From assembly GCA_035256305.1 (NCBI GenBank), contig DATEYH010000138.1, positions 1 to 37,343 of the forward strand: a stretch of 37,343 nt of DNA, given 5' to 3'. Below the pieces are notes generated by a model. It ran no database searches and was not told the DNA's origin. It worked only from the letters and a program-made list of their open reading frames with translations. The first letter of the stretch is position 1. Each line of letters opens with the position of its first letter. A program made the position numbers and the translations under genes. This document shows positions 9,575 through 34,391 of this stretch, piece after piece. This DNA comes from Candidatus Nanoarchaeia archaeon. GTDB taxonomy: Archaea > Nanobdellota > Nanobdellia > Woesearchaeales > SM23-78.

Positions 9575-9620
9575 AATCGCAAGCTTTAAATATTAGTTAT
9601 ACTTACTTATACTTATAAGT

Positions 9621-10326: not shown

Positions 10327-10554
10327 ATGGTGCAGGCGATGATTAATATAAACGAGAACTCCAACCGCGTATTGAACATAGTCAAAGCCAAGTACGGGCT
10401 GAAAGATAAGTCTCAGGCTATAGACTTAGTTGTGTCTGAGTACGAGGAATCCTTCCTTGAGCCAGAGCTAAAGCCTGACTACAAGAAAAAGCTTGATAAG
10501 ATAATCAAAGGCAAGCACTTGTCCCGAAAGGAGTTTGAGAAAAGAGTGGGTTAG
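10327..10554 (+). CDS. putative antitoxin (small DNA-binding protein) of the RelE-like toxin
   Basis: MVQAMININENSNRVLNIVKAKYGLKDKSQAIDLVVSEY...; overlaps the downstream toxin by 20 nt. AT-rich TATA run ends about 20 nt upstream. The N-terminal 20 codons of the tracked ORF are AT-rich promoter-like sequence. Confidence 0.5.
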   Translation: MVQAMININENSNRVLNIVKAKYGLKDKSQAIDLVVSEYEESFLEPELKPDYKKKLDKIIKGKHLSRKEFEKRVG

Positions 10555-10819
10555 GTTGTACACAGACGAGTACAGCGATAAGATTAGTGATACCCTGGCC
10601 AAGCTGAAGAAGAGGGATCTCAAGCAATACCTAATCGTGCGCAAGAAGATGGACTGGATTCTTGAGAATCCAGGTCATAGCTACAAGTTCTTAAGCCAGG
10701 ACATGAAAGGTCTTAGCCGGATTCATTTAGGGCATTTTGTGCTGGTGTTTTCCATCAATCATAAGAAGAGGTTAGTATCTTTTGAAGATTACGACCACCA
10801 CGACAAGATATACTACTGA
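10535..10819 (+). CDS. RelE/ParE-superfamily toxin
   Basis: 94 aa, basic; ...LKGLSRIHLGHFVLVFSINHKKRLVSFEDYDHHDKIYY resembles the RelE/YafQ C-terminal core; paired with an upstream small ORF. Confidence 0.6.
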   Translation: MRKEWVRLYTDEYSDKISDTLAKLKKRDLKQYLIVRKKMDWILENPGHSYKFLSQDMKGLSRIHLGHFVLVFSINHKKRLVSFEDYDHHDKIYY

Positions 10820-10932
10820 ATAAGCCACTCCTCCTTCACAAAGCTGTCAGGCAATTGTTGCTCAAAGCAGAGAAAACCAGCTCTTCCAGTGATGAGTTAA
10901 ACAAATGAGAAAACTGAACTAAAATATTTTAG

Positions 10933-10975
10933 GGCTTCCACATTAAACTCTTACGAGGAAGGAGGTGGACAGCGG
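10933..10975 (+). repeat. dispersed intergenic repeat, copy A (GGCTTCCACA..CTTACGAGGAAGGAGGTGGACAGCGG)
   Basis: Near-identical to 12875-12917; partial copies at 8113-8135, 12839-12850 and 13948-13972. The ends form an imperfect inverted repeat (GCTTCCAC / GTGGACAGC). Confidence 0.7.
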
Positions 10976-10979
10976 ATAA

Positions 10980-11813
10980 TTATGTTAACCTTTTCCTCTT
11001 AGATTTTTCAGGCTCTGAAAGGTAGCTTTCTTTTGAGGTTATGGGTTTGCCTATTTCTTTCTCAGCATCTTTCCTGGCTTTTCCAGCAACCCTTCCCCCT
11101 CTTCTTGCTGAATCCTGGCATTGTTTGAGCCCTTGCGAGTCTTTTGTTTGAGTAATCTCAGTGGTTACTTTCTCACCAAGCATAGTAAATATTAATTCTA
11201 AATCATTCATATGATCTCTTAAGTTATGCCTTTTCAAGCCTTTGAACTGCTTGTATTCTTCAACAGTCTTTCCAAAAGTAGCCTTGCTAATATCGTTGGT
11301 TAATATCGCGAACTCAACATTCTCATCAACACCCCTGTTCTTCCACTCATCAGTCAGTTCCTGTCTTATAGCGATTCCCCTAACTCTCTTCTCAATCCAC
11401 TCATCAGAATAACCTTTGGCCCGGTAAAGCTCTTTCATTCTCTTCTGGGCTAACTCAGGATCCTGTATTTCCTGCACTCTTTCATAGCCAACCTTTGCAA
11501 GCCAAAGCTTGAAAGGCTCTGCCTTGGGTGATGGGATAGACTGGATAATCCTGAACATATTTTTGGTATTTGCGCAGTCAGTTTCCCTTAGTTTACCATC
11601 TTCTGCTGGTAATTTCAACTGTAAACAAAATGTTAACAGTTGAGGCTCTCGGCTCTTTAAAACGCCCCAATACTGTCTGGGACTAGGGCTATCAGTTAAA
11701 GCTTGCACAATATCAACAACTGAGAAATACCACTCATCATTATGCCAAACCCTTCTGATTTTCTTGTCCTGAAAAACAACCAGTGCCTTGTCTTGACTAA
11801 CATTTTCTGTCAT
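10980..11813 (-). CDS. Bro-N domain protein (phage antirepressor / DinD-like)
   Basis: N-terminus LVVFQDKKIRRVWHNDEWYFSVVDIVQALTDS is the Bro-N pattern; basic C-terminal tail. Confidence 0.7.
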   Translation of the reverse strand: MTENVSQDKALVVFQDKKIRRVWHNDEWYFSVVDIVQALTDSPSPRQYWGVLKSREPQLLTFCLQLKLPAEDGKLRETDCANTKNMFRIIQSIPSPKAEPFKLWLAKVGYERVQEIQDPELAQKRMKELYRAKGYSDEWIEKRVRGIAIRQELTDEWKNRGVDENVEFAILTNDISKATFGKTVEEYKQFKGLKRHNLRDHMNDLELIFTMLGEKVTTEITQTKDSQGLKQCQDSARRGGRVAGKARKDAEKEIGKPITSKESYLSEPEKSKRKRLT

Positions 11814-12917: not shown

Positions 12918-13058
12918 AGGATGGATTTCCGAAGAAAGGATACAACCAGAAAAGGGAGAAGATAGTTTATCATATGTGAAGCAAATAAAACTTTAATTTT
13001 ATCCATTATGAAGAGTAAAATTAAAACAATGAAGGTATATAATTATATACTTTTAGAT

Positions 13059-13439
13059 TCAATTCTTGGATTTGCTAAAAGGGTGCCACTTCTTCCAAAC
13101 CAATTCAGAAAAGTAGAGAAGTCTATCAACAAATCTTACCAATTTTAATGATATCAGGATTACAATAAAGAAGAGCAGGGATATTGCGAATGCACCTAAA
13201 GGCACATCAATTAATAAATTTCCACTAAATGGATGCGCAGCGAAATCATATTTACTTAGAACCCATGAAGTGGCTCCTGAAAGCGTACTTGCAATTATTA
13301 TTGTAATGTAATCTTTACTTTTAACGAAATCTTTTTTTTCTTCACAGGAATACTTATATAACTCTTTTAAAGAAGGTTTATCCGATAATTTCATTAAAAT
13401 TGAGAATGCGCACTTATTTTTATTTTTTACTATTTTCAC
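13059..13439 (-). CDS. membrane protein, unknown function
   Basis: 126 aa with two clear hydrophobic helices. Confidence 0.4.
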   Translation of the reverse strand: MKIVKNKNKCAFSILMKLSDKPSLKELYKYSCEEKKDFVKSKDYITIIIASTLSGATSWVLSKYDFAAHPFSGNLLIDVPLGAFAISLLFFIVILISLKLVRFVDRLLYFSELVWKKWHPFSKSKN

Positions 13440-13566
13440 TACCCTAGAACTTCTTCAGAACATTCACTAGCGTTCCTTGTTCTTTCATCCGGGAGACTTG
13501 CATATCTTTTTCACTATCCTTCAGCGAGGCTCTTTCCGAGGGAAAAATAATAAAACCTGGTTATAT

Positions 13567-13935
13567 TCAATTCTTTTTAGAACGCAACTCAGAAATCCAC
13601 TTCTCAATTTCTTGAATTCGAACATCATATAATTTCTCTTTAGATTTCATAATCATTTGAACTCCTTGATAAGCAAGGCTGCCCACTAAAAAAGGAAGTC
13701 CAAAAATCAAAAGGATGAGCATAATTAATGCAACTATTACATTAAATTCTATAATCGCTTTTACAACAGAAGTGATGGTATTAGTAAAGGCATTAGCTAA
13801 AAAGCCCGTTGTAACCAAAAAAGTTAAGACTCCTGCCAAGATTGAAACAGCCAAAGAATGCAATTCTTTTTCTTTCTCAAGCTTTAATTCAATTTTCTTC
13901 AATTTTAACTCAAATATCTTCTCATCCTTATCCAT
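13567..13935 (-). CDS. membrane protein with N- and C-terminal coiled segments, unknown function
   Basis: 122 aa with two hydrophobic helices flanked by Lys/Glu-rich segments. Confidence 0.4.
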   Translation of the reverse strand: MDKDEKIFELKLKKIELKLEKEKELHSLAVSILAGVLTFLVTTGFLANAFTNTITSVVKAIIEFNVIVALIMLILLIFGLPFLVGSLAYQGVQMIMKSKEKLYDVRIQEIEKWISELRSKKN

Positions 13936-14114
13936 GTAATCAAGTAATTCATTCCACTATTTAACTCTTACGTTTCAAAAAGAACTCTTCGCTCACGAAT
14001 GCGCTGCACTTATTCTGTTCGCTCGTCGCCCCATCTCTCAGCCTCGCACCTCTCACTCACTTTCGTTCATGGAGGCTCAGCTGGAGAGATATCCCCTATA
14101 GCAATTGATAGTAC

Positions 14115-14612
14115 TTAGTTACACTGTTCTTCTTGTCTATATTTTGTTACTATTCGTGTTTCTTTTTTTGTTCCCGGAATAACTTGATATTGTACTGTGA
14201 AATCCTCTCCAGAGCTAATATCATATTCTTCTCTAAATTCTATAGCTTCTCCTGGCATGATATAATGTGCTGACTTTAATGAGGTTTCTCCATCTTCTAA
14301 GGTTTTAAAGATTTGAGTCACAGTAAATTCTCCGGTTTCCGAATCAACATTTTTTACTTTTACTATTCCAACTGCCCAAACGTCCAATATCCCTTTGAAT
14401 ATTGTTGTTTTTGTATCCTCAACAACTTCATATTTCAAGTCAACAGAGTATTCTTCAGTAGTTTCATAAGGAACGTCTACCATTTTACATTTTTGTATAG
14501 GGCTAGTAAACTTGATAGTAGACCGGTCTGACGAGCTACAAGCAGTTAACGCTAAGCTAAACATTATTAACAAAATAGAACTCACAATAAGGAAGTTATT
14601 CATTTTATGCAC
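14115..14612 (-). CDS. putative lipoprotein
   Basis: Signal peptide ending in lipobox LALTAC; beta-rich mature part. Confidence 0.5.
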   Translation of the reverse strand: MHKMNNFLIVSSILLIMFSLALTACSSSDRSTIKFTSPIQKCKMVDVPYETTEEYSVDLKYEVVEDTKTTIFKGILDVWAVGIVKVKNVDSETGEFTVTQIFKTLEDGETSLKSAHYIMPGEAIEFREEYDISSGEDFTVQYQVIPGTKKETRIVTKYRQEEQCN

Positions 14613-14703
14613 CCCCGCGTATTGTGTGTTTAGAATCCTGACTTTATTTAAAAAGAATGTGTTTTTTAAGAAGATTTAAATAGATAAAGTTCCTGTTATA
14701 TTA

Positions 14704-14937
14704 ATGACCGACATGGAACCTAAAAAAAGCATTCCTATTAAAGGTTGGAGATGGATATTCTTTATAATAGGGATTATTTTCGGAATATTGAATGTTGCCT
14801 TTTGGGTATATTACCTAATTTTACATTCAAAAATGAAAGATAAATGGGACACTCAAAAATACTTTGCCTTTTTTTGGTGGGGTGTTTTTGTAAGCGTTCT
14901 TTTAGGAATAGCCATTATTGTGAATATAATATTTTAA
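14704..14937 (+). CDS. small two-helix membrane protein
   Basis: 77 aa with two Trp/Phe-rich hydrophobic helices. Confidence 0.4.
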   Translation: MTDMEPKKSIPIKGWRWIFFIIGIIFGILNVAFWVYYLILHSKMKDKWDTQKYFAFFWWGVFVSVLLGIAIIVNIIF

Positions 14938-14969
14938 AAAAGATTTAAATAATATAATTAATTACAAGA

Positions 14970-17288
14970 TCATACTTCTCCTGGCTGTTCTCCAATTGTT
15001 TGCCAAAAAGCCAATCCTTCAGCTCCTGTAGTGCAGGGCCCTGCTCCTAATCCGTATGGATTATTATGAACTCCTATAAATGCACAGATGTGTTGATAAC
15101 ATCCAATTGCACCACTTTTATGTTCATAAAGAAGATTATAACGATGACCTCGGCTCGTCATCCAGGAATCAACTGCTTCTTTAGGACTTGTGCCGGCAAT
15201 CGGTTCACCACTTTCATAATAAGTCATTCCGCCGAGGTTTTCTGCGAGAATTTCGTTTTCACTAAAGCCGTATTCACTTTTCATATCCTTTACACAAGTA
15301 CCTTCTGGTGTTACGTGATCGAAATAATTTCTTTCAGTCAAATCTTTAGACCGTGCAACTGCTAATTTATAAGCCCTTTCATCCCAGTCAATTTCATTTT
15401 TACCGTTTTCTTCCCTTAGCTGATTGATATAATCAAAAGCTTCCAAGTCTTGAACTTTTTTACTCTCGATACAATCTCCTTTCCAAATTGAATAACCCCA
15501 TTTACATCCACATTTTTCTGCGAAGGGGATTAGCTCTCCTTCTTTACAGTAATACGGCTTGTTATCATTACATTGACCATATTCTGTTCTATCAGAGCAA
15601 CGCATAATCTTCTTACAAGAATTTCCGTCTTTTCGATAGTCTTCAGGGCAACCGCATTCATCTGCATTGTTAATTAATGTTCCGTTAATGCATTGCTTTG
15701 GTTTGTTTAGAGAGCATTCTGGAGAGAGTGTGTTATCTGAACATTTTATTATAACTATGCATTCCTTTTGATACTCCCTTTGCCCCCCAGGACATCCGCA
15801 TTTGACAGCATCTTTTTTTAAACCCGAATAAGAGCAAAAAAACGGTGGATTACTGGAACAATCATTCAGTTGGGTTCCATCGCTGCATGTTATTTCTTCA
15901 CCAAATAAATTAAATACGAAATTTCTAACGATAAGAAAACGAGGTTGCTTAACAGAGTAGTTAATCACCTCAATGTAACTAAAATTCTTCTGAACTAATA
16001 TTGTTCCCGAAATATCCCTTTCAGATTTTTTTATGCTCGAAACATTAATCTTTAAATCGTTATAACTTCTTTTAAACACTCCCGTTATCTCATAAATATC
16101 AGGAGACGTCCCTTTATTTAGGAAAAATGAAGAATATTCTGACTCCCTGTTGATAAAATCCAGAGTGTTCCCATCATCATCGGCGATGGCTTGAACATAA
16201 ACTCCGGAAGTACTGCTACCTTTAACATACCTTTGAAGAAAACCTTTCAGCGTTACCGGTTGATTATTATAAGCAGTTCTATTTGCCAAATATTTTGAAA
16301 ATGACATGTGGGAAGTAATTGTTTGATTTTCGTAAACGGTCCTTATTTTTGTAAGATTCTCTGTTACTTCTTGCGTTGTTGTACTAAACGTCAGGTATAG
16401 AATAATTATAAAAATGAGAATTATTGGCAGAAATATTTTTATCAGTCGAAGAATGATTTTTTTCTTTTTTACATTAGGTTTTTTATTTTCTGATTTGATT
16501 TCTTCTTTTTCATCTGGCTTAATCTTAGTCTCTTCAGTTTCTTTCTTCGTTTCTGTTTCTAGTTTAGCTTCTAATGACTTGGCAGGAGCCTTGCTCGGAG
16601 TTTCTTTTCGCGGTGACTTGATAACTAAGTCTAGTTTTTTCCTGTATTCCTCTTGTTTTCTTTTTTGTTCAGCTTCCCAGTACTCAACAAAGTCCGGGCA
16701 AGGATGTCCCCCCATTTTACGCCATTCTTCCATGAATATTTTATCTTCTGGCCTGTTACTTTTGAATCTAGGAGGCCCCGCTGGCTTAGGCCTAAGATGG
16801 AAGGTGCAGAAAAACTGTTTGCAGTAAGAGCATTTTTTTAATTCTGTTTTTTTCTTACAATAATAATAACTACATTCATGTTTATTCAATTTTTTCTTAA
16901 CAATTTTTTCATTTTCTTTATCTAAGTTTAAACCGCCGCCCAAGTATATCCCTCCGGGCGGCTTCCAGGTGCCTAATCGAGCATTGCTCTGGGTTGCATA
17001 AAAACTGCTTTCGTGGCTTGGGTTTACAAGATGTGTTACTTCATGAGAAGCAGCTTCTTCAATTTCTTCAAAAGTCATCTGTTTTAGCCTTCGTTTAGAA
17101 ACACAAATAATGCCAGTTTCAATGTGTATATGCGCCCATTCATCAGGTCCTTCATATGGACATCTATCTTCATGAAATTCAACTCTGGGAATTTCAACAT
17201 TAAGGAATTCGGCTGTCTTTTTAACTGTAGCTAGAAATCTTGCTTTTTTCTCTGTTAAAATTTTATCTTCAAACGCGTCAGGTTCCAT
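14970..17288 (-). CDS. multidomain membrane protein: WLM/SprT-like Zn-protease + AN1-like zinc finger (cytoplasmic), TM helix, 3 Cys-rich repeats + CAP/SCP/PR-1 domain (extracellular)
   Basis: HEVTHLVNPSH (HExxHx5H) at aa 82-92. C-x4-C-x9-C-x2-C-x4-C-x2-H ... H-x-C at aa 139-197. Hydrophobic helix at aa 279-301. Three ~45-aa repeats ending CGCP/CGCK at aa 468-606. CAP motifs (YFDHV, WMTSRGHRYNLL) at aa 615-745. Confidence 0.75.
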   Translation of the reverse strand: MEPDAFEDKILTEKKARFLATVKKTAEFLNVEIPRVEFHEDRCPYEGPDEWAHIHIETGIICVSKRRLKQMTFEEIEEAASHEVTHLVNPSHESSFYATQSNARLGTWKPPGGIYLGGGLNLDKENEKIVKKKLNKHECSYYYCKKKTELKKCSYCKQFFCTFHLRPKPAGPPRFKSNRPEDKIFMEEWRKMGGHPCPDFVEYWEAEQKRKQEEYRKKLDLVIKSPRKETPSKAPAKSLEAKLETETKKETEETKIKPDEKEEIKSENKKPNVKKKKIILRLIKIFLPIILIFIIILYLTFSTTTQEVTENLTKIRTVYENQTITSHMSFSKYLANRTAYNNQPVTLKGFLQRYVKGSSTSGVYVQAIADDDGNTLDFINRESEYSSFFLNKGTSPDIYEITGVFKRSYNDLKINVSSIKKSERDISGTILVQKNFSYIEVINYSVKQPRFLIVRNFVFNLFGEEITCSDGTQLNDCSSNPPFFCSYSGLKKDAVKCGCPGGQREYQKECIVIIKCSDNTLSPECSLNKPKQCINGTLINNADECGCPEDYRKDGNSCKKIMRCSDRTEYGQCNDNKPYYCKEGELIPFAEKCGCKWGYSIWKGDCIESKKVQDLEAFDYINQLREENGKNEIDWDERAYKLAVARSKDLTERNYFDHVTPEGTCVKDMKSEYGFSENEILAENLGGMTYYESGEPIAGTSPKEAVDSWMTSRGHRYNLLYEHKSGAIGCYQHICAFIGVHNNPYGLGAGPCTTGAEGLAFWQTIGEQPGEV

Positions 17289-17319
17289 TTTTTTATAGAG
17301 TGAAGATACATTTTGGCGT

Positions 17320-17340
17320 ATTAATGTTTTTCTGTTTTTT
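17320..17340 (-). promoter_or_regulatory. shared promoter module copy 1 (plus strand ATTAATGTTTTTCTGTTTTTT)
   Basis: One of four near-identical copies, each 22-29 nt upstream of a minus-strand start codon. On the minus strand it reads as a purine-rich BRE-like tract followed by an ATTAATA TATA-like box. Confidence 0.6.
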
Positions 17341-17363
17341 CATCAATCCCTGCAGAAGAATAG

Positions 17364-17666
17364 TTACCGCATCCGGAATGGAATGCCGTGCTCTTCCAAA
17401 AGCACTTTCCTTATCTTTTGACGAACCCAATGACCGCGTTTGCCTCTTCTCTTAATGATGTCATGGCTGGTCTTAATAACAAGCCGCATGAACTCATTTC
17501 TTGTAGGCTCTCTTTTATGCCTAAGCTTAAATTTCCTTAATCGCTTGTTTAAGTTCCTATGAGCTCTGGCTCTTAGCTTACGGGAAAGAAATGGTCTTCG
17601 CTTTTTTGGAGCTACTGGAGGAAAAAGCCATCTAAGAAATTTTTTAATCTTGGTAAATAAACTCAT
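17364..17666 (-). CDS. highly basic small protein (100 aa, about 40% Lys/Arg), unknown function
   Basis: ORF preceded by promoter module copy 2 at leaderless spacing; no recognisable domain. Confidence 0.45.
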   Translation of the reverse strand: MSLFTKIKKFLRWLFPPVAPKKRRPFLSRKLRARAHRNLNKRLRKFKLRHKREPTRNEFMRLVIKTSHDIIKRRGKRGHWVRQKIRKVLLEEHGIPFRMR

Positions 17667-17690
17667 ACATTCAACCTTAAGTTTCAGTAT

Positions 17691-17710
17691 ATTAATGTTT
17701 TTTCGTTTTT
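17691..17710 (-). promoter_or_regulatory. shared promoter module copy 2
   Basis: ATTAATGTTTTTTCGTTTTT; TATA-like box ends 22 nt upstream of ATG 17666. Confidence 0.6.
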
Positions 17711-17720
17711 ATTTAAATTA

Positions 17721-18416
17721 TTAATCTACAAATTTAGCTGTAAAAATAAGTTCCTTTGAGTCTCTTGTTGGCGTGATGTTACTATAGCAGGTTAAGTTAC
17801 AGAGATACCTCCCAATTTTTACTTCAGTGGGAAAATCAGTGAATTTTATGGTATAGCTTCCTCCACAATATTCTTGGGTTTTCATAAGAACAATTCTTGT
17901 TGTAGAGCCTAAATTTGGACTATCAGTTATGCAAGCAGTAGTAGGTCCTGCCATTCCAGACCAACCTCGTTGAATAATTTTACCAATATATTGTTCGCAA
18001 CTTGAATCGCAAAAAACATCTCTTAGTAACGTATTACCAGTGTTCACAACAGTAAAAGTAAATGCGAGATAGTTCAATTCACGGGATATGTCACAAAAAC
18101 CTATATAAGTGTCATTAGTTATTTTTTCAATGTTTGAACAAGGTGCAGGTCCTGGTCCAGGTCCTATATCAAGGCGACTGATTGATATTTCATTTTTTTC
18201 CACAGTTTCTTGTGAACATAAAATAGGATTATCTACCTCCCTCCCATCATCACAATAATAGGCAGTTTTTTCAGGTTCTGGCGTAGGTTGGGGGCATAAG
18301 GAAGGGTCTGAGACCGTTTGCCCATTTGAACAAACATATTTAGCTGGCTCTTTTGAACAACTCGTTAAGAGAACTAACAAGAAAACTAACAAGAGCGATA
18401 TTTGAATAAGTTTCAT
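17721..18416 (-). CDS. cysteine-rich lipoprotein
   Basis: MKLIQISLLLVFLLVLLTSC lipobox. Duplicated Y-x-C-x2-G-x2-V-x2-P-x-LC motif. Start taken at ATG 18416, 22 nt from the TATA-like box (tracked ORF starts at 18425). Confidence 0.55.
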   Translation of the reverse strand: MKLIQISLLLVFLLVLLTSCSKEPAKYVCSNGQTVSDPSLCPQPTPEPEKTAYYCDDGREVDNPILCSQETVEKNEISISRLDIGPGPGPAPCSNIEKITNDTYIGFCDISRELNYLAFTFTVVNTGNTLLRDVFCDSSCEQYIGKIIQRGWSGMAGPTTACITDSPNLGSTTRIVLMKTQEYCGGSYTIKFTDFPTEVKIGRYLCNLTCYSNITPTRDSKELIFTAKFVD

Positions 18417-18440
18417 CAAAAGCATTATTATTTATCCAAT

Positions 18441-18461
18441 ATTAATGTTTTTCTGTTTTTT
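18441..18461 (-). promoter_or_regulatory. shared promoter module copy 3
   Basis: ATTAATGTTTTTCTGTTTTTT. Confidence 0.6.
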
Positions 18462-18547
18462 CTGTGTTTTTGATGTTAAATCTTGCTTTTATAGACTATA
18501 AATAAGCCTTTGAAAATATAAGCTCTGAGTTTGCTTAACCTAAATCA

Positions 18548-19576
18548 CTAATTTCTAATTAGAACATCTCCATCAGAAATAGTTATTGCCTCCGCATCAT
18601 AATATGACCCATAAACATCTGAATAATACCTGAAATTAGGGTCAGAAACTAAAGTAGTTTCTATAGGACAATAAACTATATCCCCATACTTACGACCGCT
18701 TAAACATTTAACTCCTACAGAAGCATGGTCTGCTTCTTCAAACATAAGTAGAGCTGTTCCATAACCTAATTCTCTTAGAAGGTAAATAAGAAGCAGGCTT
18801 TTTTCTTCACACAAACCTCTTTGTTCATAAAGAACCTGGAAAGGATACTTTCTATCTAAAGAATAGTTTCCTTCATTCGTAAGCTCATTTTCTAAAATCA
18901 AAAGTTTCTTATAATCATAAGAAATATATTGCACTAGGTTAATTGCAATATCTGCTTGTTCGTCTCTATTTGGAGTCTGCTTTTTTATCTCGCTTAATAA
19001 TTCATTTAAAAATGGTCTTTGGGCTTCCTCATCAAGAAATTTATTATAAAAATTCCTTCCTTCCTCCTCAGAGTAACCTTCATAGAGGACAGGTCTACGT
19101 AACTGTTTTAAATATTCGTTTAACCCTCCATATACTGTGAAATTCATGTAATCCTTTTCACCCACACGCAATTTTATTGTTTTAGGATTCAATTTGAAAT
19201 TATACTCGCAGTTTTCACCAACTACAACCATTAAAGGAGGGCAACCACACTCGGAAGCTTTATTAACCAACCATCCATTTTCACAATATAAAGGCTTATT
19301 TCTTGAGCATTCTCCATATTTTGTTCCTTCTATTCTATACATAACATCATCAGCCCAATATACTACATCGTCAAGACATCTTTGACTTGAATAATACTCC
19401 TGTTGCTCAGTGATATTATCAGAAGAATTGTCTGTGCTTTCATTTTCAACATAAATTCCGTTTTGGCTATAATTTGTTGGCTTGGAATAATTATTAGTAA
19501 CAATTGTTCCTTGTAATGAAGGATTACATGAAGTAATAAAAAGAAGAATTACCAATAACAAAAACAGTTCTTTCAT
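18548..19576 (-). CDS. secreted transglutaminase-like cysteine protease-fold protein with N-terminal Cys-rich module
   Basis: Signal/lipobox MKELFLLLVILLFITSC. GECSRNKPLYCENGWLVNKASECGCPP is the same module as in 14970-17288. QRGLCEEKSLLLIYLLRELGY...HASVGV fits a transglutaminase-like Cys/His core. The tracked N-terminal 28 codons overlap the promoter module. Confidence 0.6.
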   Translation of the reverse strand: MKELFLLLVILLFITSCNPSLQGTIVTNNYSKPTNYSQNGIYVENESTDNSSDNITEQQEYYSSQRCLDDVVYWADDVMYRIEGTKYGECSRNKPLYCENGWLVNKASECGCPPLMVVVGENCEYNFKLNPKTIKLRVGEKDYMNFTVYGGLNEYLKQLRRPVLYEGYSEEEGRNFYNKFLDEEAQRPFLNELLSEIKKQTPNRDEQADIAINLVQYISYDYKKLLILENELTNEGNYSLDRKYPFQVLYEQRGLCEEKSLLLIYLLRELGYGTALLMFEEADHASVGVKCLSGRKYGDIVYCPIETTLVSDPNFRYYSDVYGSYYDAEAITISDGDVLIRN

Positions 19577-19604
19577 ATTATTGAATGTAAAGATAATCTT
19601 GAAT

Positions 19605-19624
19605 ATTAATGTTTTTTCGTTTTT
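19605..19624 (-). promoter_or_regulatory. shared promoter module copy 4
   Basis: ATTAATGTTTTTTCGTTTTT; TATA-like box ends 26 nt upstream of ATG 19576. Confidence 0.6.
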
Positions 19625-19628
19625 ACTC

Positions 19629-19802
19629 TTATTTTCTAGGTAATTGTATGGTTGGTTCAATTTCTTTAGCTTTTTTATAATCGTTCTCCGCGCCTTTTAA
19701 ATCGCCCATTCTTTGTTTTATGAGTCCTCTTTCAACATATGCATCAGCATAATCTGGCTTAATTTTTATACATTTATTTAGGTCCTTCAGATTATTCTTC
19801 AA
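19629..19802 (-). pseudogene. TPR-repeat fragment (about 57 codons, no ATG)
   Basis: Minus-strand frame reads ...LKDLNKCIKIKPDYADAYVERGLIKQRMGDLKGAENDYKKAKEIEPTIQLPRK*, a single TPR unit. An in-frame stop lies just upstream and only a TTG could start it. Confidence 0.35.
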
Positions 19803-20030
19803 ACTCCTATTAATTTCCTTATCAGTTTAATGCTTATTTCTTAATCTATGCTTTGTCAAGGACTTTTTGTAATGATTATTTGTCATTATGCTTTTCTCAC
19901 TTCAATAATCGTTATAAACAATATCATCTTTTTCTTTCTTTTATCGTCGAGTGTTCAAGAGGCAGCTTTGCAGGGTTCTAGCAATGTATGAATGTTAGCA
20001 TGGCTAGCCAGGGCCATGGAGGTTCGTATC

Positions 20031-28022: not shown

Positions 28023-28555
28023 TTAAGAATAAAACAAAAATTCTTTTTTATATTTAATTTTGAAACATAATTTCTTAGAAATAATAAATTAATGATAGCT
28101 GTTCATAGGAATCAACAACCAAGGTTGTTGAGCCAAAAATTCTGAGGAATTTTTGTGCATCATAGTCTTTGCTTCTCAGAGCCAATTCTCTGATTTGATT
28201 GTTAAATGAGAGATTGGACTTATTAGTGGCTGCATGCTGAGCACCTTGTTGCCTTGGTGCGTACACACCAGCTCTATCAACCCGATCTTCTATCGGCGTC
28301 CATGAGCGTCTCTTTTCAAGGATGGCTTCATACTTAGATGCTTTCAGTATTTATCCATGTAAAGCGTAGCTGCCCGGCCTACCCTGTCGGATAACCGGTC
28401 GACCAGAGGCTTCGGGCCCTCGTTCCTCTCGTACTAAAGGTCCCTTCCTTTCAGACACCCAACACTTCCAGTAGATATCAAACAAACTGCCTCGCAGCGT
28501 TCTGAACCCAGCTCACGATCCCTTTTGATAGGTGAACACCCTCACCCTTGGCCGC

Positions 28556-28588
28556 ATACAGTACCTTCTTACTTTCGCAAAAAGGTTA
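28556..28588 (-). other. 33-nt BHB-type mini-intron in 23S domain V (hairpin after GAUGUCGGCU)
   Basis: Outer helix GGCCG/CGGCC, central helix GCAG/CUGU, bulges AAU and AUG, inner helix ACCUU/AAGGU. Removal gives CCGUGCAGAAGCGGCC, the conserved archaeal LSU sequence as I recall it. Confidence 0.6.
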
Positions 28589-28852
28589 TTCTGCACGGCC
28601 AGGATAGGAAGAGCCGACATCTATGTAGCAAACCGCGCCGTCGATAGGAGCTCTCGGGCGCGACAACTCTGTTATCCCCGGAGTAACTTTTCGGTCGGTA
28701 CCGTCCCCCATTCAAGGAGGAACGGCAGTTCGTTAGGCCCAACTTTCGTTTCTGGTATTCTTCTTATTCAAATACCAGTCAGGCTGGCTTTTGCCCTTAC
28801 ACTCAACATCGGATTTCTGACCCGACTGAGCCAACCTTGGGGCGCCACTGAT

Positions 28853-28897
28853 ATAAAGCGAGCATAGACAAGCTTTATCAAGCAATCTATTGCTCAT
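28853..28897 (-). other. 45-nt BHB-type mini-intron in 23S domain V
   Basis: Textbook helix-bulge-helix-bulge-helix: GCCGCUGA/UCAGUGGC, central AAAG/CUUU, two AUA bulges, inner helix UGAGCA-UAGA/UCUAUGCUCG. Removal gives GCUGAAAAGAUAUCAGUGGC. Confidence 0.75.
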
Positions 28898-29233
28898 ATC
28901 TTTTCAGCGGCGTGCCACCCCAGCCAAACTGTCCACCTGCCGGTGTCCAAGTCACAAGGACTTGTGAGCAGCGTAAAACCAGATGAGTAGTGTTACATCG
29001 ACGTCTAAACCTGCACTTGCATGCAAGCCTCAAACAACTCCTACTTACTCTATACACCCGGTCTCACGTTGCAGCAACAGGCTACAGTAAAGTTTCACGG
29101 GGTCTTCGCTTCCCACTGGAAGTCTCTGGTCTTTGCACCAGAACAAAATTTTCAGAGGGTTCCGGTTGGGGACAGTGGAGATCTCGTTACGCCATTCATG
29201 CAGGCCGTCAATCAAACGGCAAGGCATTTCGCT

Positions 29234-30005
29234 CACATCTGTTACTTCCCTTAAAATTTAAGGTACTGACCTTCTCTTTAAGGCGGACAAGCATTTCTAC
29301 TAGTTGCTCAAAAATCTCAAATGATTTTTGGCAACCCCAAAACCACATGGTTTTGATGTCTCCTCACATCGCTATGAGGGTCGGACTATATCTTAACACT
29401 CATCAAAGAGTGTTTTTGGCGTATAGTCTCTGAGGATTCTAGACGCCTTATGACTTTTCGGTTCATCTCAGAAGCAAGTTCAGCTATTTTCTCTAAGCCT
29501 GCTCTTGACAAGTGCTCCTTTTTATTCATAATCCCTAATATTTGTGCAAAGAGTTCAAAGCTATTCTTCTTAGAAGTTTGAAGAGGATTTTCATTTATGA
29601 ACTGAACTATACGGTTCAGGTTGTCTAATCCTCTCACTCGGAACTCTTTCCTATCTCCGTTATTCACAGTTACGCTTCCAAAACCAAAATATGACTTGAT
29701 TCTGTGAAGTACTGCTTCATCGCGTTGATGTTGCACTATCCTTAATTCAGGGAGTACCTGCCATTTTAAGGTCATTTTCTCTAATCTATTAATAGACACA
29801 TGAAAACAACCTTCTCCATCAATGAATCCGACAATCCACTTAGCATCCAGTCTTTCCTGCTGATTATCTGCACCTATCACTTTTTCACCCTGACAACATA
29901 TAAACGTTTTAATTTAAATAGCTCACGTTAATATGTCCAGTGGTAGTGTAGGACTCTCAGACGTCCCAGCATATAGCCAGATTGTTTAAGGCAACTTCTG
30001 TGCTT
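29234..30005 (-). mobile_element. group I intron (772 nt) in 23S domain IV, carrying a LAGLIDADG homing endonuclease ORF
   Basis: Interrupts CUUAAGGU|AGCGAAAUGCC. The 5' exon ends in U, paired as U.G in a 7-bp P1 with internal guide GCCUUAA 13 nt into the intron. The intron ends in G. AAGAUAUAGUCCGACC (the classical S/P7 3' element) follows the ORF, with candidate P7 partner GGACAUAU. Confidence 0.75.
29386..29880 (-). CDS. LAGLIDADG homing endonuclease (single-motif type)
   Basis: KWIVGFIDGEGCFHVSI motif near the N-terminus; 164 aa; GTG start; sits inside the intron and its stop codon lies within the AAGAUAUAGUCC core element. Confidence 0.85.
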   Translation of the reverse strand: MIGADNQQERLDAKWIVGFIDGEGCFHVSINRLEKMTLKWQVLPELRIVQHQRDEAVLHRIKSYFGFGSVTVNNGDRKEFRVRGLDNLNRIVQFINENPLQTSKKNSFELFAQILGIMNKKEHLSRAGLEKIAELASEMNRKVIRRLESSETIRQKHSLMSVKI

Positions 30006-30837
30006 ACCTTAAGAGAGTTATAGTTACTCCCGCCGTTTACCTGTCCTTCGTTCCCTTGGATGGGATTTTCAGATACAGGCACTGGGCAGACGTCACCGAC
30101 TATTCTAGCCCTTACGGGTTGGCAGTCGGTTAAGTTTTTGTTAAACAGTCGGACCTCCTTTGTTACTGTGCCTTACACTCGCATTCTTATGAATACAAGT
30201 GTAGGGACCCCTTAGACCGAAGGCTTGGGGCTAATTTGCCGAATTCCCTCAACCAGATTGTCCCTTCTCGCCGTGGGCTTCTCACCCAGGGGCACCTGTG
30301 CCGGTGCTGGGTATAGACATAAAGGATTTTTCCCTGTTCCCTTTTCAAGGGCTCCGGGTATTAGCTGAACAATACTTAAGTACTGCTGTTCTAAGAGTTG
30401 ACCAGGTTCTCATCGTTACGATACTCCCCTGACCTGCCCTTATTAACAATCCCGACGGGGATTGTCAGCCTAACCAGAAGCGTCAGGAACAAGGCTTGCG
30501 TTACCGCACATACCAATATGGTACAGGAATATTAACCTGTTTCCCTTTCCTCTACTAGCTCAAGTTATGAGCTGAGTTAGGACTAACTTACCCTTGGCTG
30601 ATCTGCATTGCCAAGGAACCCTTGCCCTTTCAGCGACACTGATTCTCACAGTGCTAAGTTCTTACTATTACCAGGATTCTCATTCCTGCAAGATTGACCT
30701 CTCCTCTCGGAGAAGCTTCTGCTCTAGCAGGACGCCTACCTACCGCAACGCTTGCGCGTGCCAGCGGTCTCGGTGACTGATTTAGCCCCGTCCATCTTAG
30801 GCGCTCATAACCTCGAAGAGTAAGCTGTTACGCACTT

Positions 30838-30870
<33 letters not shown>

Positions 30871-32235
30871 CGCTGTCTTTGGTTATGAACAACCTTCACC
30901 CTTTCACACTTAACCAATGCTTAGGGACCTTAACCGCTGTCTGGGTTGTTCCCCTCTCGCGCATCACCCTTACGACGATGCGCCGTCTCCTGAGGTCTAC
31001 AGTGCATGGGACTTTGGAGTTGGACAAAGAACCGACCACTTTCGCGGCCTAAATCCTAAATCCGTAGCTCTACCTCCCAGGCAACCTCGCTCAGGGCTTG
31101 ACTGCAGCCAACTTCGGTAGGAACCAGCTATCGCCGAACTCGATTGGCTTTTTACCCCTACGCTCAAGTTAGAAGAACATTTGTACATAGAACCTCTGCA
31201 GGCCTCCACCCTTCTTTAGAAGGGCTTCACCTTACCCAAGTGTAGTTCGTCCGGCTTCGGGTCTGGTCCGAGTGACTAAAGGCGCTTTCACACCTCTCCC
31301 CTCGCATGCTGCGGGATATTGCTTTCGCTTTGGATGCCCATTGATTAATGGTTATCCTTGCCACTCAGACAAACTCCCTGGCTCGTTATTCTAAACGCAC
31401 GATACACAGCCGAAGCTGCGTATCCCGCTGTATCTACTAGGTTTCAAGTTCTATTTGACTCTCTGTCAAGAGTTCTTTTCAGCTTTCCCTCACGGTACTG
31501 GTTCGCTATCGGACTCAAAACGTGTTTAGGGTTAGGAGTTGATGCCTCCTAGCTTCGCACCTAGTATCCAGTAGGTGCTACTCAAGATACTGCCACGCCT
31601 CCCTGACTCCCTCTACGGGACTATCACCCTCTATGGTACTTCTTTCCAGAAGACTTTGAGTCATCAGGGTAAGGTCTAAAAGACAGTCTTACAAATCCAC
31701 ATCCCATCTCATTTTTCAATGAAAGGTTCAGATTGCCCTTTGCTGCTTTCGCTCTCTGCTAATAACAGCATCCTTAGTTTAGTTTCTCTTCCTGCAGGTA
31801 CTAAGACGTTTCAGTTCCCTGCGTATAGCTAGCCTTTCGGCTTCAAAGCGAAGTCGCATTCAGAAATCCCTGGTTCAACCCCTGCGTGCGGGTCGCCAAG
31901 GCTTTTCGTGGCTTGCCACGTCCTTCTTCGCCGTCTTGAGCCAAGCTATCCTCCTAGTAGAGTATTTTCTCTCAGAACTTAGCAATCATTTCAGAGACTT
32001 ATCTCTGTGTTGCAAAGACCAATAATTTCCTATGAACAGCCTTCATTAAACATGAGTAAATGAATATTGGTCGACATGAAAAAGCATGTCTTCTCGTGTT
32101 CTGAGCTTCTTCACCCAGCAAGTCTTAGTTGCCGAGCTGCTAATAAAAAATTGAATATGAAATGTAAGTGGACTCTGCGACAACAAAAATCGCGAAGCGA
32201 TTTTTGAGTCCTCGAGTCCATCTCACTTCGTTCGA

Positions 32236-32377
32236 TGGACTCTGCGGGAATTGCGTCCTCAGAGTTTATGTAATAAACTCTGATGTTGTATTCGCACCCG
32301 CGGCCCCCACCTCTCTCAAGCAAAAGCTCTTGCCTTTTGCATGCAAGGGTGGTGCTCTACTACTGAGCTAAGAGCCC
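32236..32377 (-). tRNA. tRNA-Ala(UGC) in the 16S-23S spacer, with two introns (29 nt at 37/38, 32313-32341; 41 nt in the T-loop at 59/60, 32250-32290)
   Basis: Acceptor GGGCUCU/AGAGUCC with the G3:U70 Ala identity pair, D arm GCUC/GAGC, anticodon stem CCACC/GGUGG, loop CUUGCA-A, variable GGGCC, T stem GCGGG/CCCGC. T-loop intron flanked by central helix UGCG/CGCA and bulges AAU/AUU. The mature T-loop UGCGAAU and D-loop AGUAGUA are atypical. Confidence 0.75.
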
Positions 32378-33224
32378 ATGCCGGGGGTATAATCCCCTTT
32401 TGCTCCTGTGAATAGCAAAAAAATAATGTGGTAGGAGAAGAACTAGCCTAACAAGATTCTAATATTTATATAAAAAATTATAGGAGGTGATCCCACCGCA
32501 GGTTCCCCTACGGTGACCTTGTGACGACTTAACCCATCTCACTGAACTCAGGTTCAACACAACCAAGAAAGCTGTGTTTCACCTAAACCCTGCTCGATTG
32601 GTTTGACGGGCGGTGTGTGCAAGAGACAGGGACATATTCACCGGACTATGCTAAAATCCGATTACTAGGGATTCCATCGTCACGAGGCTGAGTTACAAGC
32701 CTCGATCTGAACTAAGATATGGTTTAGAGGTTTAGCTCCCCCTTTCGGGGTGGCATCCCATTGTCCATACCATTGTTGCGCGCGTGTAGCCTAGAGCATT
32801 CGGAGCATACAGACCTACCGTAGCCTGCACCTTCCTCCCTGTTTCCAGGGCAGTCCCCTCAAAGTGCTCAATCCATCCGTGGATGTTGTTAGCAATAGAG
32901 GGTACAGGTCTCGCTCGTTGCCAGACTTAACTGGACGCTTCACAGCACGAGCTGGCGACGGCCATGCACTACCTCTCGGCTTGTCAGGTAATGTCTTCAG
33001 CATGACCTTCATTCTGCCGTCGGCTCTAGTGAGGTTCTCTGCGTTGAGTTAGATTGAACCGCACGCCGCACCCCTTGTGGTGTCTCCCCGCCAATTCCTT
33101 AAAGTTTCAGCCTTGCGACCGTACTTCCCTGGTGGCGAGCTTAACGACTTCTCTTCGACACTGCGCATCCTCGTGGGGTGCGCAATACCTTGCTCGCAGC
33201 GTTTACAGCTAGGACTACTCGGGT

Positions 33225-33368
33225 AATTAGCACCTTTATTTCCATAACGTATCAGAATTTGCAATGGATTGTAGTAATTTTTTCTTGGCAAAAACAAATC
33301 GTTCAGTGGGTTTTAACGAAGTTAAAATCCCACATTGCATTTTTTGGTACAGCTTTGATTAAAGGTGT
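33225..33368 (-). other. 144-nt BHB-type intron in 16S, inside the GGAUUAGAUACCC block
   Basis: Central helix UUAG/CUAA, bulges AUA and UUA, 8-bp inner helix CACCUUUA/UAAAGGUG. Cutting after the 2nd bulge nt restores GGAUUAGAU|ACCCGAGUAGUCC. Contains a 12-bp UUCG-capped hairpin. Confidence 0.8.
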
Positions 33369-33852
33369 ATCTAATCCGTTTTGCTCCCCTAGCTTTCGTT
33401 CCTCACAGTCGGACCCGTCCTGGCCAGATGCCTTCGCCATTGGTAGTCCTCCCTGGATTAACCCATTTTACCGGTACCCAAGGAATACTTCTGACCTCTT
33501 CCGGTCCCGAGTCTTGTAGTGTCCTCTGCACGCCGACAGGTTAAGCCTGCCGATTTCACAAAGGATTTTCAAGACCTGCTACGAACGCTTTAGACCCAAT
33601 AATCGTGATGACCACTTGGGGCGCTGGGGTTACCGCGGCGGCTGGCACCAGTCTTGCCCACCCCTTATTCGCCAAGCTTTTTACACATGGCAAAAGCCTA
33701 TCAATGATAAGCACTTGGGATCCCCTTCTCACACTTGCGTGCATTGGAAAGGTTTCGCGCCTGCTGCACCCCGTGGGGCTGGGACCAGTATCTCAGTGTC
33801 CCTCTCCGGGCTCCCACTCTCATGGCCCGTACGGATCCTAGGTTTGGTGGTC

Positions 33853-33896
33853 TTGTAAGCGCCAGCTTACAACCCAAAAGGGTTAGCTTTTGCGTG
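33853..33896 (-). other. 44-nt BHB-type mini-intron in 16S (helix equivalent to E. coli ~255-270)
   Basis: Outer helix UUGGCGGU/ACCACCAA, central helix GUAA/UUAC, bulges UGC and AAG. Removal gives UUGGCGGUGUAAUGGACCACCAA, colinear with the conserved UUGGUGGGGUAACGGCCCACCAA. Confidence 0.65.
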
Positions 33897-34391
33897 CATT
33901 ACACCGCCAACAGCCTAATCCGCCGCCAGTCCATCCTATGGCACGAGTTTAAGGAAGAGCCCATTCCAGGGCTTGTTCCCTATCAGGTATTACCCTCACT
34001 TTCGCGAAGCTATCCCCGACCATAGGGCAGGTTACCGACGTGTTACTGAGCCTTTCGCCTCCATTGCTGGATGACTTGCATGGCTTAATCGGATCCCAAT
34101 AGCAGCAATCTCCCGCAGGATCAACGGGAACTGATTATTTGATTATTCGGCTAAAACTTTAATGAAACTTTATTAGAATTCTGCTAAACAGGATTCTTTC
34201 TCCTACCAGTATACTTGAATAGCTAGTTCAAGCATGAAACAAACTTTTCGAGTTATGCTGATGCAAAAGATGCTTAATCCAGACTTTCGTCGAGATGTTT
34301 TTAATTCTGCATAACTATGGCGCTGATCGCTTGTAGAGAATCAGTGTTTAGATCCTCGCCTGAAAATGCGTGTTTTCAGAGAGTTATAGGG

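What the first reader, a model, noticed from the sequence alone, without database searches (positions are those of the whole stretch)
28853..28897. Textbook 45-nt BHB mini-intron in 23S domain V
It folds as 8-bp outer helix GCCGCUGA/UCAGUGGC, 4-bp central helix AAAG/CUUU, two symmetric AUA bulges and a 10-bp inner helix. Excision yields GCUGAAAAGAUAUCAGUGGC. Its loop, GAAAAGAUAUC, matches what I recall from haloarchaeal 23S at this hairpin. This is the cleanest BHB in the window and supports the weaker calls.
Basis: partly seen in the sequence, partly recalled or inferred. Interest (0 to 1): 0.7.

Follow-up and report, generated by a model that had tools for sequence, protein, structure and literature searches.

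The report
45-nt BHB mini-intron in archaeal 23S
A 45-base insertion in the large ribosomal RNA gene of an uncultured DPANN (Woesearchaeota-like) archaeon folds into the textbook signal for the archaeal tRNA-splicing enzyme, so it is almost certainly an intron; this is a real but fairly ordinary new example of a known kind.

Summary
Window 28853..28897 (minus strand) is a 45-nt insertion in the apical loop of helix 81, domain V, of an archaeal LSU rRNA gene (28202..31977). It folds as a canonical helix-bulge-helix-bulge-helix: a 9-bp outer helix, a 4-bp central helix AAAG/CUUU, two AUA bulges and an 11-bp inner helix. Cutting after the second nucleotide of each bulge gives CUGAAAAGAUAUCAG. That matches the Rfam archaeal consensus and is the exact H81 loop sequence found in DPANN relatives that lack the insertion.

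Fifteen public loci carry an insertion at the same site. Their interiors differ, but the BHB core is kept. Ten of 23 pairs show double changes, and 90.7% of cells are paired against 31-44% for slid controls. The only invariant intronic bases are those of the BHB core.

A BHB pattern match alone is not significant in this window. The case rests on boundary coincidence, covariation and patchy presence.

The same operon also holds three more BHB introns in rRNA hairpin loops, a two-intron tRNA-Ala, and a group I intron with a LAGLIDADG gene.

Splicing itself is inferred; I had no RNA data. Verdict: a new member, at an apparently undescribed site, of the known archaeal BHB rRNA intron class. Interest is modest.

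The parts
28202..31977 (-). Host gene: archaeal LSU (23S) rRNA. It is 3776 nt in the DNA and about 2926 nt once the three insertions are removed.
   Evidence: Rfam RF02540 at 2393.8 bits, covering model positions 1-2987. Insertions were mapped by MAFFT against six related LSUs.
28843..28912 (-). The complete helix-bulge-helix-bulge-helix element (hBHBh') built on helix 81.
   Evidence: MFE fold and z-score. The fold persists in a 271-nt context. The strict BHB scanner reports outer 9 / inner 6 here.
28904..28912 (-). Outer helix, 5' strand CGCCGCUGA (exon). It is the native H81 stem plus the first two loop bases.
   Evidence: It is 100% paired in 10 homologues, with 3 covarying pairs.
28900..28903 (-). 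Central 4-bp helix, 5' strand AAAG (exon, H81 loop bases).
28897..28899 (-). 5' bulge AUA. The predicted cleavage is between 28898 and 28897, after the second bulge base.
   Evidence: Sequence. The cleavage position follows the established rule for archaeal splicing endonuclease on BHB motifs. It coincides with the Infernal insertion boundary.
28853..28897 (-). The 45-nt intron: AUGAGCAAUAGAUUGCUUGAUAAAGCUUGUCUAUGCUCGCUUUAU.
   Evidence: It is absent from intron-less relatives.
28859..28896 (-). Intron interior. The inner helix is UGAGCA/UGCUCG, a bulged A, then UAGAU/GUCUA. The apical stem is GCUU/AAGC with a GAUA loop.
   Evidence: Seven of 10 inner-helix pairs show changes on both sides across homologues.
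28855..28858 (-). Central helix, 3' strand CUUU (intron). It is invariant in 8 of 10 homologues; the other two have CUUG.
28852..28854 (-). 3' bulge AUA. The predicted cleavage is between 28853 and 28852.
28843..28851 (-). Outer helix, 3' strand UCAGUGGCG (exon).

Best explanation
This is an ORF-less archaeal bulge-helix-bulge (BHB) intron in the apical loop of helix 81 of 23S rRNA. That loop corresponds to E. coli positions about 2265-2275, and the intron sits after about 2272.

What the sequence shows: in the pre-rRNA, the native H81 stem is extended by pairing of exon loop bases (GA, then AAAG) with the 3' end of the intron (CUUU) and with the 3' exon (UC). This creates two 3-nt bulges exactly 4 bp apart.

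What is inferred: the tRNA-splicing endonuclease EndA cuts after the second base of each bulge. RtcB-type ligase then joins the exons to give the normal loop GAAAAGAUAUC. The 45-nt intron is released, probably as a circle. The organism is an uncultured DPANN archaeon of the Woesearchaeota / Nanoarchaeia type.
For: (1) Infernal places a 45-nt net insertion exactly in the H81 loop.

(2) The geometry is a canonical 3-4-3 BHB. The fold has dG -32.7 kcal/mol, z = -4.9, and it is stable in a 271-nt context.

(3) Applying the BHB cleavage rule gives CUGAAAAGAUAUCAG. This is the exact H81 loop sequence of intron-less DPANN LSU genes retrieved without regard to H81: L024 and L027 (CUGAAAAGAUAUCAG) and L031 (AUGAAAAGAUAUCAU). 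L033 and L034 also lack the insertion but differ by one or two loop bases.

(4) Pattern scans found 4 genome loci and 11 metagenome loci with a 34-47 nt insertion at the same site. The inner helices have unrelated sequences: UGAGCA.., UGAGU.., UCGA.., CGAG...

(5) Covariation on 10 distinct variants: 90.7% of cells are paired against 31-44% for slid controls. Ten pairs show changes on both sides. No shuffle out of 500 reached the observed covariation score.

(6) The invariant intronic bases in that alignment all lie in or beside the BHB core: the first base (A), CUU of the central helix, the first base of the 3' bulge, plus three interior bases at positions forming or adjoining inner-helix pairs. 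Across the eight family-1 variants the whole 3' end CUUUAU is identical.

(7) Presence is patchy. Lineages at about 72-75% LSU identity either have the insertion (L009, L011) or lack it (L024, L031, L033).

(8) The same primary transcript encodes a tRNA-Ala(UGC) that ARAGORN recognises only after two BHB introns are removed in silico. The cell must therefore run BHB cleavage and ligation on this RNA.

(9) Three further rRNA insertions in the operon obey the same cleavage rule.
Against: There is no RNA-level evidence: no junction reads and no circular intron reads. EndA and RtcB genes are not in the 37-kb window, so their presence rests on the fact that they are universal in archaea. A BHB pattern by itself occurs by chance at about the observed window-wide rate. 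The outer helix and the 5' strand of the central helix are exonic and are conserved anyway, so only the inner helix and the intronic core carry independent covariation signal. The loci used for covariation were selected by a pattern that fixed the flanks.
Confidence: 0.86

Rival explanations
1. It is a retained expansion segment. The 45 nt stay in the mature 23S rRNA as an extension of helix 81, and the BHB-like shape is incidental.
For: The insertion sits in an apical hairpin loop and coaxially extends a native stem, as expansion segments do. DPANN rRNAs are variable in length. No RNA data are available.
Against: An expansion segment has no reason to keep two 3-nt bulges exactly 4 bp apart while its interior is replaced by unrelated sequence. 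The loop bases AAAG, which are conserved across archaea, would be locked into a helix. The insertion differs at 13% between genomes whose LSU is 97% identical. It is absent from many relatives.
Confidence: 0.06
2. It is an excised spacer without exon ligation. EndA removes the 45 nt but the exons are not rejoined, so the mature 23S is split at H81. This would resemble bacterial intervening sequences or fragmented rRNAs.
For: The BHB guarantees cleavage only; ligation is inferred. Unusual LSU topologies exist in archaea, for example permuted or circular 23S rRNA in Thermococcales (PMC7758197, listed, abstract only).
Against: The tRNA-Ala on the same transcript needs ligation after BHB cleavage to be functional, so a ligase acts on these ends. 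In every studied archaeal rRNA BHB intron the exons are ligated (established knowledge; Kjems and Garrett and later work, not re-read here).
Confidence: 0.05
3. It is a chance hairpin, an assembly artefact or a pseudogene copy of the rRNA operon.
For: Strict BHB pattern matches are about as common in the window as in shuffled sequence.
Against: The same insertion is found in three other assemblies from different sources (ENA, NCBI, Logan). Homologues exist in 15 further loci. The boundaries coincide with the LSU model to the nucleotide. The LSU scores 2394 bits full length with conserved functional centres.
Confidence: 0.01

Closest known systems
BHB introns of crenarchaeal rRNA genes (Desulfurococcus mobilis 23S; 16S introns of Pyrobaculum, Thermoproteus and Caldivirga; Jay and Inskeep 2015, PMC4496867)
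   Same: An insertion in an rRNA gene whose exon-intron junctions form a bulge-helix-bulge core. These are excised by the tRNA-splicing endonuclease, and removal restores the conserved rRNA sequence.
   Different: Those introns are often more than 700 nt and frequently carry homing-endonuclease ORFs (PMC4496867). They occur in hyperthermophilic Thermoproteales and Desulfurococcales, and at other sites. The 16S loci listed in that paper are 374, 548, 722, 781, 803, 901 and so on. From memory, the known 23S sites cluster around positions 1927-1952 and 2550-2600. The element here is 45 nt, has no ORF, lies in the H81 apical loop, and belongs to a 42% GC DPANN archaeon.
BHB introns that co-occur with group I introns in DPANN rRNA genes (Nawrocki, Jones and Eddy 2018, PMC6125680, Figure 1)
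   Same: The same host group (Woesearchaeota, Pacearchaeota, Micrarchaeota). The same situation of a group I intron at LSU/1931 with a LAGLIDADG gene plus BHB introns in one gene. The window's LAGLIDADG protein is 73% identical to the one in their intron IB4.12 (AQRL01000028.1).
   Different: That paper is about the group I introns. The text and the supplement I could read give no positions or structures for the BHB introns. Their AQRL01000028 LSU has no H81 intron.
Canonical archaeal pre-tRNA introns (37/38, hBHBh')
   Same: Identical motif geometry, size range and predicted enzymology: two 3-nt bulges, a 4-bp helix, cleavage after the second bulge base. An example sits in the same operon, the tRNA-Ala intron at 32313..32341.
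   Different: The host RNA is 23S rRNA, and the outer helix is a native rRNA stem rather than the anticodon stem.
Insertion sequences in rRNA genes of CPR bacteria (PMC11270868, abstract only)
   Same: Ultra-small uncultured groundwater organisms whose rRNA genes carry many insertions, some encoding homing endonucleases.
   Different: The CPR hosts are bacteria, which as established knowledge have no EndA-type tRNA-splicing endonuclease and therefore no BHB splicing. I did not read that paper beyond its abstract, so the nature of its insertion sequences is not characterised here.

Membership tests
Archaeal BHB (splicing-endonuclease-dependent) intron | Two 3-nt bulges on opposite strands separated by exactly 4 bp | tested here: met
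   AUA / AAAG:CUUU / AUA in the sequence and in the MFE fold.
Archaeal BHB (splicing-endonuclease-dependent) intron | Flanking helices on both sides of the core (hBHBh') | tested here: met
   Outer helix of 9 bp and inner helix of 11 bp.
Archaeal BHB (splicing-endonuclease-dependent) intron | Interrupts a conserved RNA gene, and excision at the bulges restores the uninterrupted sequence | tested here: met
   Infernal shows a 46-versus-1 insertion in the H81 loop. The product CUGAAAAGAUAUCAG is identical to intron-less L024 and L027.
Archaeal BHB (splicing-endonuclease-dependent) intron | Motif maintained by selection in homologous introns (covariation, conserved core) | tested here: met
   10 variants: 90.7% paired against 31-44% for slid controls, 10 pairs with double changes, 0 of 500 shuffles reaching the covariation score. 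Invariant intronic bases lie in or beside the BHB core.
Archaeal BHB (splicing-endonuclease-dependent) intron | Host encodes EndA and an RtcB-type ligase | tested here: inconclusive
   Neither gene is in the 37-kb window (Pfam scans). Indirect support comes from the tRNA-Ala in the same operon, which needs BHB splicing.
Archaeal BHB (splicing-endonuclease-dependent) intron | Intron absent from mature RNA; exons ligated; intron circularised | not testable with these tools
   No transcriptome data were available.
Group I intron | Catalytic core (P3-P9) of about 200 nt or more, a U before the 5' splice site and a terminal G | tested here: not met
   The element is only 45 nt, gives no Rfam hit, and ends in U. 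By contrast, the 772-nt insertion at 29234..30005 does meet these features.
rRNA expansion segment (retained) | Present in the mature rRNA | not testable with these tools
   There is only indirect evidence against it: the BHB core is conserved while the interior is replaced.

The most novel reading that the evidence does not exclude
DPANN archaea of the Woesearchaeota / Nanoarchaeia type may carry a largely undescribed repertoire of 30-50 nt ORF-less BHB mini-introns. These would be planted specifically in apical hairpin loops of functional rRNA regions: H81, H91, other domain V loops, SSU h11 and the 790 loop. They could move between lineages without a homing endonuclease. A weak hint is that the window's H81 intron is 93% identical to that of L007 (LSU 88%) but 87% identical to that of L010 (LSU 97%). 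Alternatively, they could be kept because splicing acts as an obligatory checkpoint in ribosome assembly.
Probability: 0.12. Interest if true: 0.6.

Novelty: new member of a known kind. Interest (0 to 1): 0.33.

Why it matters
The finding adds a well-supported example of an archaeal rRNA BHB intron outside the hyperthermophilic Crenarchaeota. It is unusually small, and it sits at a site (the H81 loop, next to the P-loop helix H80) that I could not find described.

Together with its neighbours, one rRNA operon of a DPANN archaeon would need seven splicing events: four rRNA BHB introns, two tRNA BHB introns and one group I intron.

Practical consequences:
- rRNA gene length and universal-primer sites are disrupted. 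The SSU 790-loop intron splits the 785F/806R target, so such organisms are under-counted in amplicon surveys.
- Standard tRNA finders miss the tRNA-Ala.

Conceptually it is one more data point for how far EndA-dependent splicing is used beyond tRNA. It does not change the known picture.

Tried and rejected
I used a single gap N{31,61}, so insertions under 25 nt or over 55 nt at this site were not sampled.
- A cmscan of 15 loci at once failed. It worked with 8 loci.
- An exact-protein look-up of the TrmB-like neighbour found nothing. The DEAD helicase and the LAGLIDADG ORF did locate source contigs.
- My first regular expression for intron-less H81 was wrong and returned nothing. I corrected it and then replaced it with blastn.
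- ARAGORN found no tRNA in the window or in related loci. The tRNA-Ala only appeared after manual BHB removal.
- A strict BHB scan of the 16S and 23S processing stems gave only weak candidates. Cofolding shows long flanking stems, but I did not resolve a BHB there.
- Window-wide BHB pattern counting showed no enrichment over shuffles. I therefore rejected a pattern match as evidence in itself.
- Group I identity for the 45-nt element was rejected because of its size and the absence of any Rfam hit.
- The literature searches found no description of an H81 BHB intron or of DPANN mini-introns. That is absence in an open-access subset only.
- I considered horizontal transfer of the intron, based on intron-versus-host identity. 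With 3 versus 6 differences in 45 nt this is not significant.

Full report
**Context.** The window carries an archaeal rRNA operon on the minus strand. The SSU lies at 32482..34131 (1650 nt against a 1478-position model). The LSU lies at 28202..31977 (3776 nt against 2987). The LSU is 97.1% identical to that of a metagenome contig (L010). It is about 88% identical to a MAG labelled Candidatus Woesearchaeota (L003). Identical copies of parts of the operon occur in a Rifle-aquifer assembly (ENA ERZ28563994), in NCBI GCA_964514695.1 and in a Logan assembly. The host is therefore an uncultured DPANN archaeon of the Woesearchaeota / Nanoarchaeia type, with about 42% GC.

**Step 1, the observation.** Read on the minus strand, the sequence is ...C-GCCGCUGA-AAAG-AUA-UGAGCA-A-UAGAU...GUCUA-UGCUCG-CUUU-AUA-UCAGUGGC-G....
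- The structure survives in a 271-nt context.
- My strict BHB scanner reports intron 28853..28897 with outer helix 9 and inner helix 6 (then a bulged A and 5 more pairs). It is the only strictly canonical BHB inside the rRNA genes.
- Infernal, which knows nothing about BHBs, aligns the flanks to the archaeal LSU model. It leaves a 46-versus-1 nt insertion in the loop of the hairpin after H80, at consensus C-g-C-cccc-GAAAAgaUAu-n-gggg-G-c-G. That hairpin is helix 81 of domain V.
- I numbered the site against an E. coli sequence that I recalled from memory. Its landmarks (G2251, D2449, A2503, A2602) come out right. On that numbering the H81 loop is 2265-2275 and the intron follows about 2272.

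**A caution on chance.** A formal BHB match is not in itself significant. With outer and inner helices of at least 5 bp, the 37-kb window has 23 matches on both strands. Dinucleotide shuffles average 18.7. What is improbable is that the match sits in a homology-defined insertion with the cleavage sites on the insertion boundaries, and that relatives keep it.

**Step 2, what it is.** The established rule is that archaeal splicing endonuclease cuts after the second base of each bulge. Applying it gives ...GCCGCUGAAAAGAU + AUCAGUGGC.... The restored loop GAAAAGAUAUC matches the Rfam consensus.

To obtain relatives chosen without regard to H81, I used the LAGLIDADG protein encoded in a neighbouring intron. 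I found its homologues and fetched the contigs that encode them.
- These are DPANN LSU genes and include AQRL01000028.1, which is listed by Nawrocki et al. 2018.
- Their H81 reads CUGCUGAAAAGAUAUCAGCAG (L024)...GAAAAGAUAUCAGUAG (L027) and CAUGAAAAGAUAUCAUGAG (L031), with no insertion.
- The predicted ligation product is therefore the real sequence of intron-less relatives.

Conversely, I scanned public collections with a pattern that fixes only the exon flanks and requires 31-61 nt between them.
- It found 4 genome contigs and 11 metagenome contigs with an insertion at the same site.
- These collapse to 10 distinct variants.
- Eight variants share the core AAAG/CUUU with AUA bulges. Their inner helices are UGAGCA/UGCUCG, UGAGU/ACUCG, UGAGU/GCUCG or UCGA/UCGG, with unrelated apical parts.
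- Two variants (L001-type and L004) have another interior and a relaxed core: CUUG, one A-G mismatch, and an extra A opposite the 5' bulge.

On the alignment, 90.7% of cells are standard pairs against 31-44% when partners are slid by 1-3 columns. Ten of 23 pairs show changes on both sides, seven of them in the intron-internal helix. No shuffle out of 500 reaches the observed covariation score. The invariant intronic bases all lie in or beside the BHB core: the first base, CUU of the central helix, the first base of the 3' bulge, and three interior bases at positions forming or adjoining inner-helix pairs. Within the eight family-1 variants the whole 3' end CUUUAU is identical. That is the signature expected if selection acts on recognition by the endonuclease and not on the insert as part of the ribosome.

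Presence is patchy.
- At about 72-75% LSU identity to the window, some lineages have the insertion (L009, L011) and others do not (L024, L031, L033).
- Two NCBI labels look wrong. 'Euryarchaeota SM23-78' and a 5.6-kb 'Methanosarcinales' contig are 88-89% and 99% identical, in the adjacent exon, to Woesearchaeota-type and Nanoarchaeia loci. All carriers seen here therefore appear to be DPANN.

**Surroundings.** Comparison with six related LSUs shows three insertions in the window's LSU.
- A 772-nt element lies at 29234..30005, after the equivalent of E. coli U1931. Its 5' exon ends in U and the insert ends in G. It encodes a LAGLIDADG_1 protein (E = 1.6e-25). It has a sub-threshold group I hit (RF00028, 31 bits, E = 5e-6). 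Its endonuclease is 73% identical to the one in Nawrocki's group I intron IB4.12 at LSU/1931. It is a group I intron, not a BHB intron.
- The second insertion is the H81 intron itself.
- A 33-nt insert lies at 28556..28588 in the H91 loop. It is absent from L010, L009 and L011 and is present at 30-43 nt in L003, L005 and L007. It has a relaxed BHB (central helix GCAG/CUGU), and its rule-based cleavage restores GCAGAA|GCGGCC.

The SSU has two insertions.
- A 44-nt insert lies at 33853..33896 in the h11 loop. Its central helix is GUAA/UUAC, its bulges are UGC and AAG, and it is absent from L011.
- A 144-nt insert lies at 33225..33368 in the 790 loop. Its central helix is UUAG/CUAA, its bulges are AUA and UUA, and its inner helix has 8 bp. 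Excision restores GGAUUAGAU|ACCCGAGUAGUCC.

The 16S-23S spacer holds a tRNA-Ala(UGC) at 32236..32377 that both Rfam and ARAGORN missed.
- It has a canonical 29-nt BHB intron at 37/38 and a 41-nt BHB intron in the T-loop.
- After both are removed in silico, ARAGORN calls tRNA-Ala with the G3:U70 pair.

The tRNA shows that this very transcript must be a substrate for BHB cleavage and ligation.

**Step 3, mechanism.**
- Shown: the insertion, its BHB fold, its exact boundaries, the conservation of its core, and its optional presence.
- Inferred from established knowledge of archaeal splicing: EndA cleaves at both bulges, leaving 2',3'-cyclic phosphate and 5'-OH ends. RtcB joins the exons and circularises the intron.
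- EndA and RtcB are not in the window.
- Kaneta et al. 2018 (PMC5829648) report that many DPANN EndAs carry the L3 insert, which is associated with disrupted tRNA genes and relaxed substrates. That would also accommodate the less canonical neighbours.

Rival explanations are a retained H81 expansion segment (about 6%), cleavage without ligation giving a split 23S (about 5%), and chance or artefact (about 1%).

**Step 4, comparison with what is known.**
- The element works like, and passes every testable membership criterion for, an archaeal BHB intron.
- rRNA BHB introns have been known since the 1980s in Desulfurococcales and Thermoproteales. There they are usually long and often encode homing endonucleases (PMC4496867).
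- Nawrocki et al. 2018 noted BHB introns next to group I introns in DPANN rRNA genes. They give no sites or structures in the text or in the supplement I could read.
- As late as 2022, a PNAS paper listed 16S insertions only for Crenarchaeota, Aigarchaeota and Micrarchaeota (PMC8784108).
- I found no description of an H81 intron or of 30-50 nt rRNA mini-introns in DPANN. That is a search of open-access text only.

**Steps 5 and 6, verdict.** The finding is real and its interpretation is supported. It is a new member, at an apparently undescribed site and unusually small, of a known class. A specialist would find it tidy rather than surprising. The more notable fact is the total intron load of this one operon. 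Interest is 0.33, and confidence in the BHB-intron explanation is 0.86.

Noticed in passing
window 29234..30005 (-), ORF 29386..29880: A 772-nt insertion in the LSU after the equivalent of E. coli U1931. It encodes a LAGLIDADG_1 homing endonuclease. The 5' exon ends in U and the insert ends in G. It has a sub-threshold RF00028 hit (31 bits, E = 5e-6). The endonuclease is 73% identical to the one in Nawrocki's group I intron IB4.12. This is a group I intron, absent from the 97%-identical LSU of L010.
   Followed up: partly
window 28556..28588 (-): A 33-nt insertion in the LSU H91 loop (about E. coli 2534) with a relaxed BHB: central helix GCAG/CUGU, 5' bulge AAU plus an A-A mismatch, 3' bulge AU(G). 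Rule-based excision restores GCAGAA|GCGGCC, as in L010. It is present at 30-43 nt in L003, L005 and L007 and absent in L009, L010 and L011.
   Followed up: partly
window 33853..33896 (-): A 44-nt insertion in the SSU h11 loop (about E. coli 265). The central helix is GUAA/UUAC, the bulges are UGC and AAG, and the inner side is relaxed. Excision restores GUAAUG|GACCACC, as in intron-less L011.
   Followed up: partly
window 33225..33368 (-): A 144-nt BHB insertion in the SSU 790 loop (after about E. coli U793). The central helix is UUAG/CUAA, the bulges are AUA and UUA, and the inner helix has 8 bp. It splits the GGATTAGATACCC target of the 785F/806R 'universal' primers, so this organism would probably be missed by V4 amplicon surveys. 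L010 and L011 also have an insert at this site.
   Followed up: partly
window 32236..32377 (-): A tRNA-Ala(UGC) in the 16S-23S spacer with two BHB introns: 32313..32341 at 37/38, and 32250..32290 in the T-loop at about 59/60. ARAGORN and Rfam do not detect it until both introns are removed in silico. The T-loop reads UGCGAAU, with an unusual G at position 55.
   Followed up: yes
L002/L012 and L004: The NCBI labels 'Euryarchaeota archaeon SM23-78' and 'uncultured Methanosarcinales' sit on LSU sequences that are 88-89% and 99% identical to Woesearchaeota-type and Nanoarchaeia loci. This looks like a mislabel and a mis-binned contig.
   Followed up: partly
L003 LSU 2394..2434 and 3294..3386; L009 LSU 2553..2593; L011 LSU 2681..2720: Relatives carry further 40-93 nt insertions with BHB-like folds in other domain V hairpin loops. 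Mini-introns in rRNA loops therefore seem general in this clade.
   Followed up: partly
window 28853..28897 compared with L007 and L010: The window's H81 intron is 93% identical to that of L007 (LSU about 88%) but only 87% identical to that of L010 (LSU 97%). This could hint at intron exchange or uneven rates. With 3 versus 6 differences it is not significant.
   Followed up: partly
window about 13000..20000: A low-GC stretch (31-38% against about 42-44% elsewhere). It encodes a 772-aa protein with a C-terminal CAP domain and several ORFs without Pfam hits. It may be an acquired island.
   Followed up: no
window about 9600..11800: A cluster of small genes with Fic, RepB-RCR_reg (weak) and Bro-N domains, according to the gene calls on the identical contigs L016 and L017. 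It may be a mobile-element or toxin-antitoxin remnant next to the ribosomal protein L1-L10-P1 operon.
   Followed up: no
window 17744..17907 (+): A strict BHB pattern match (outer 9, inner 6, 164 nt) in the AT-rich island, opposite a protein ORF. It is most likely chance, since shuffles give comparable counts.
   Followed up: no
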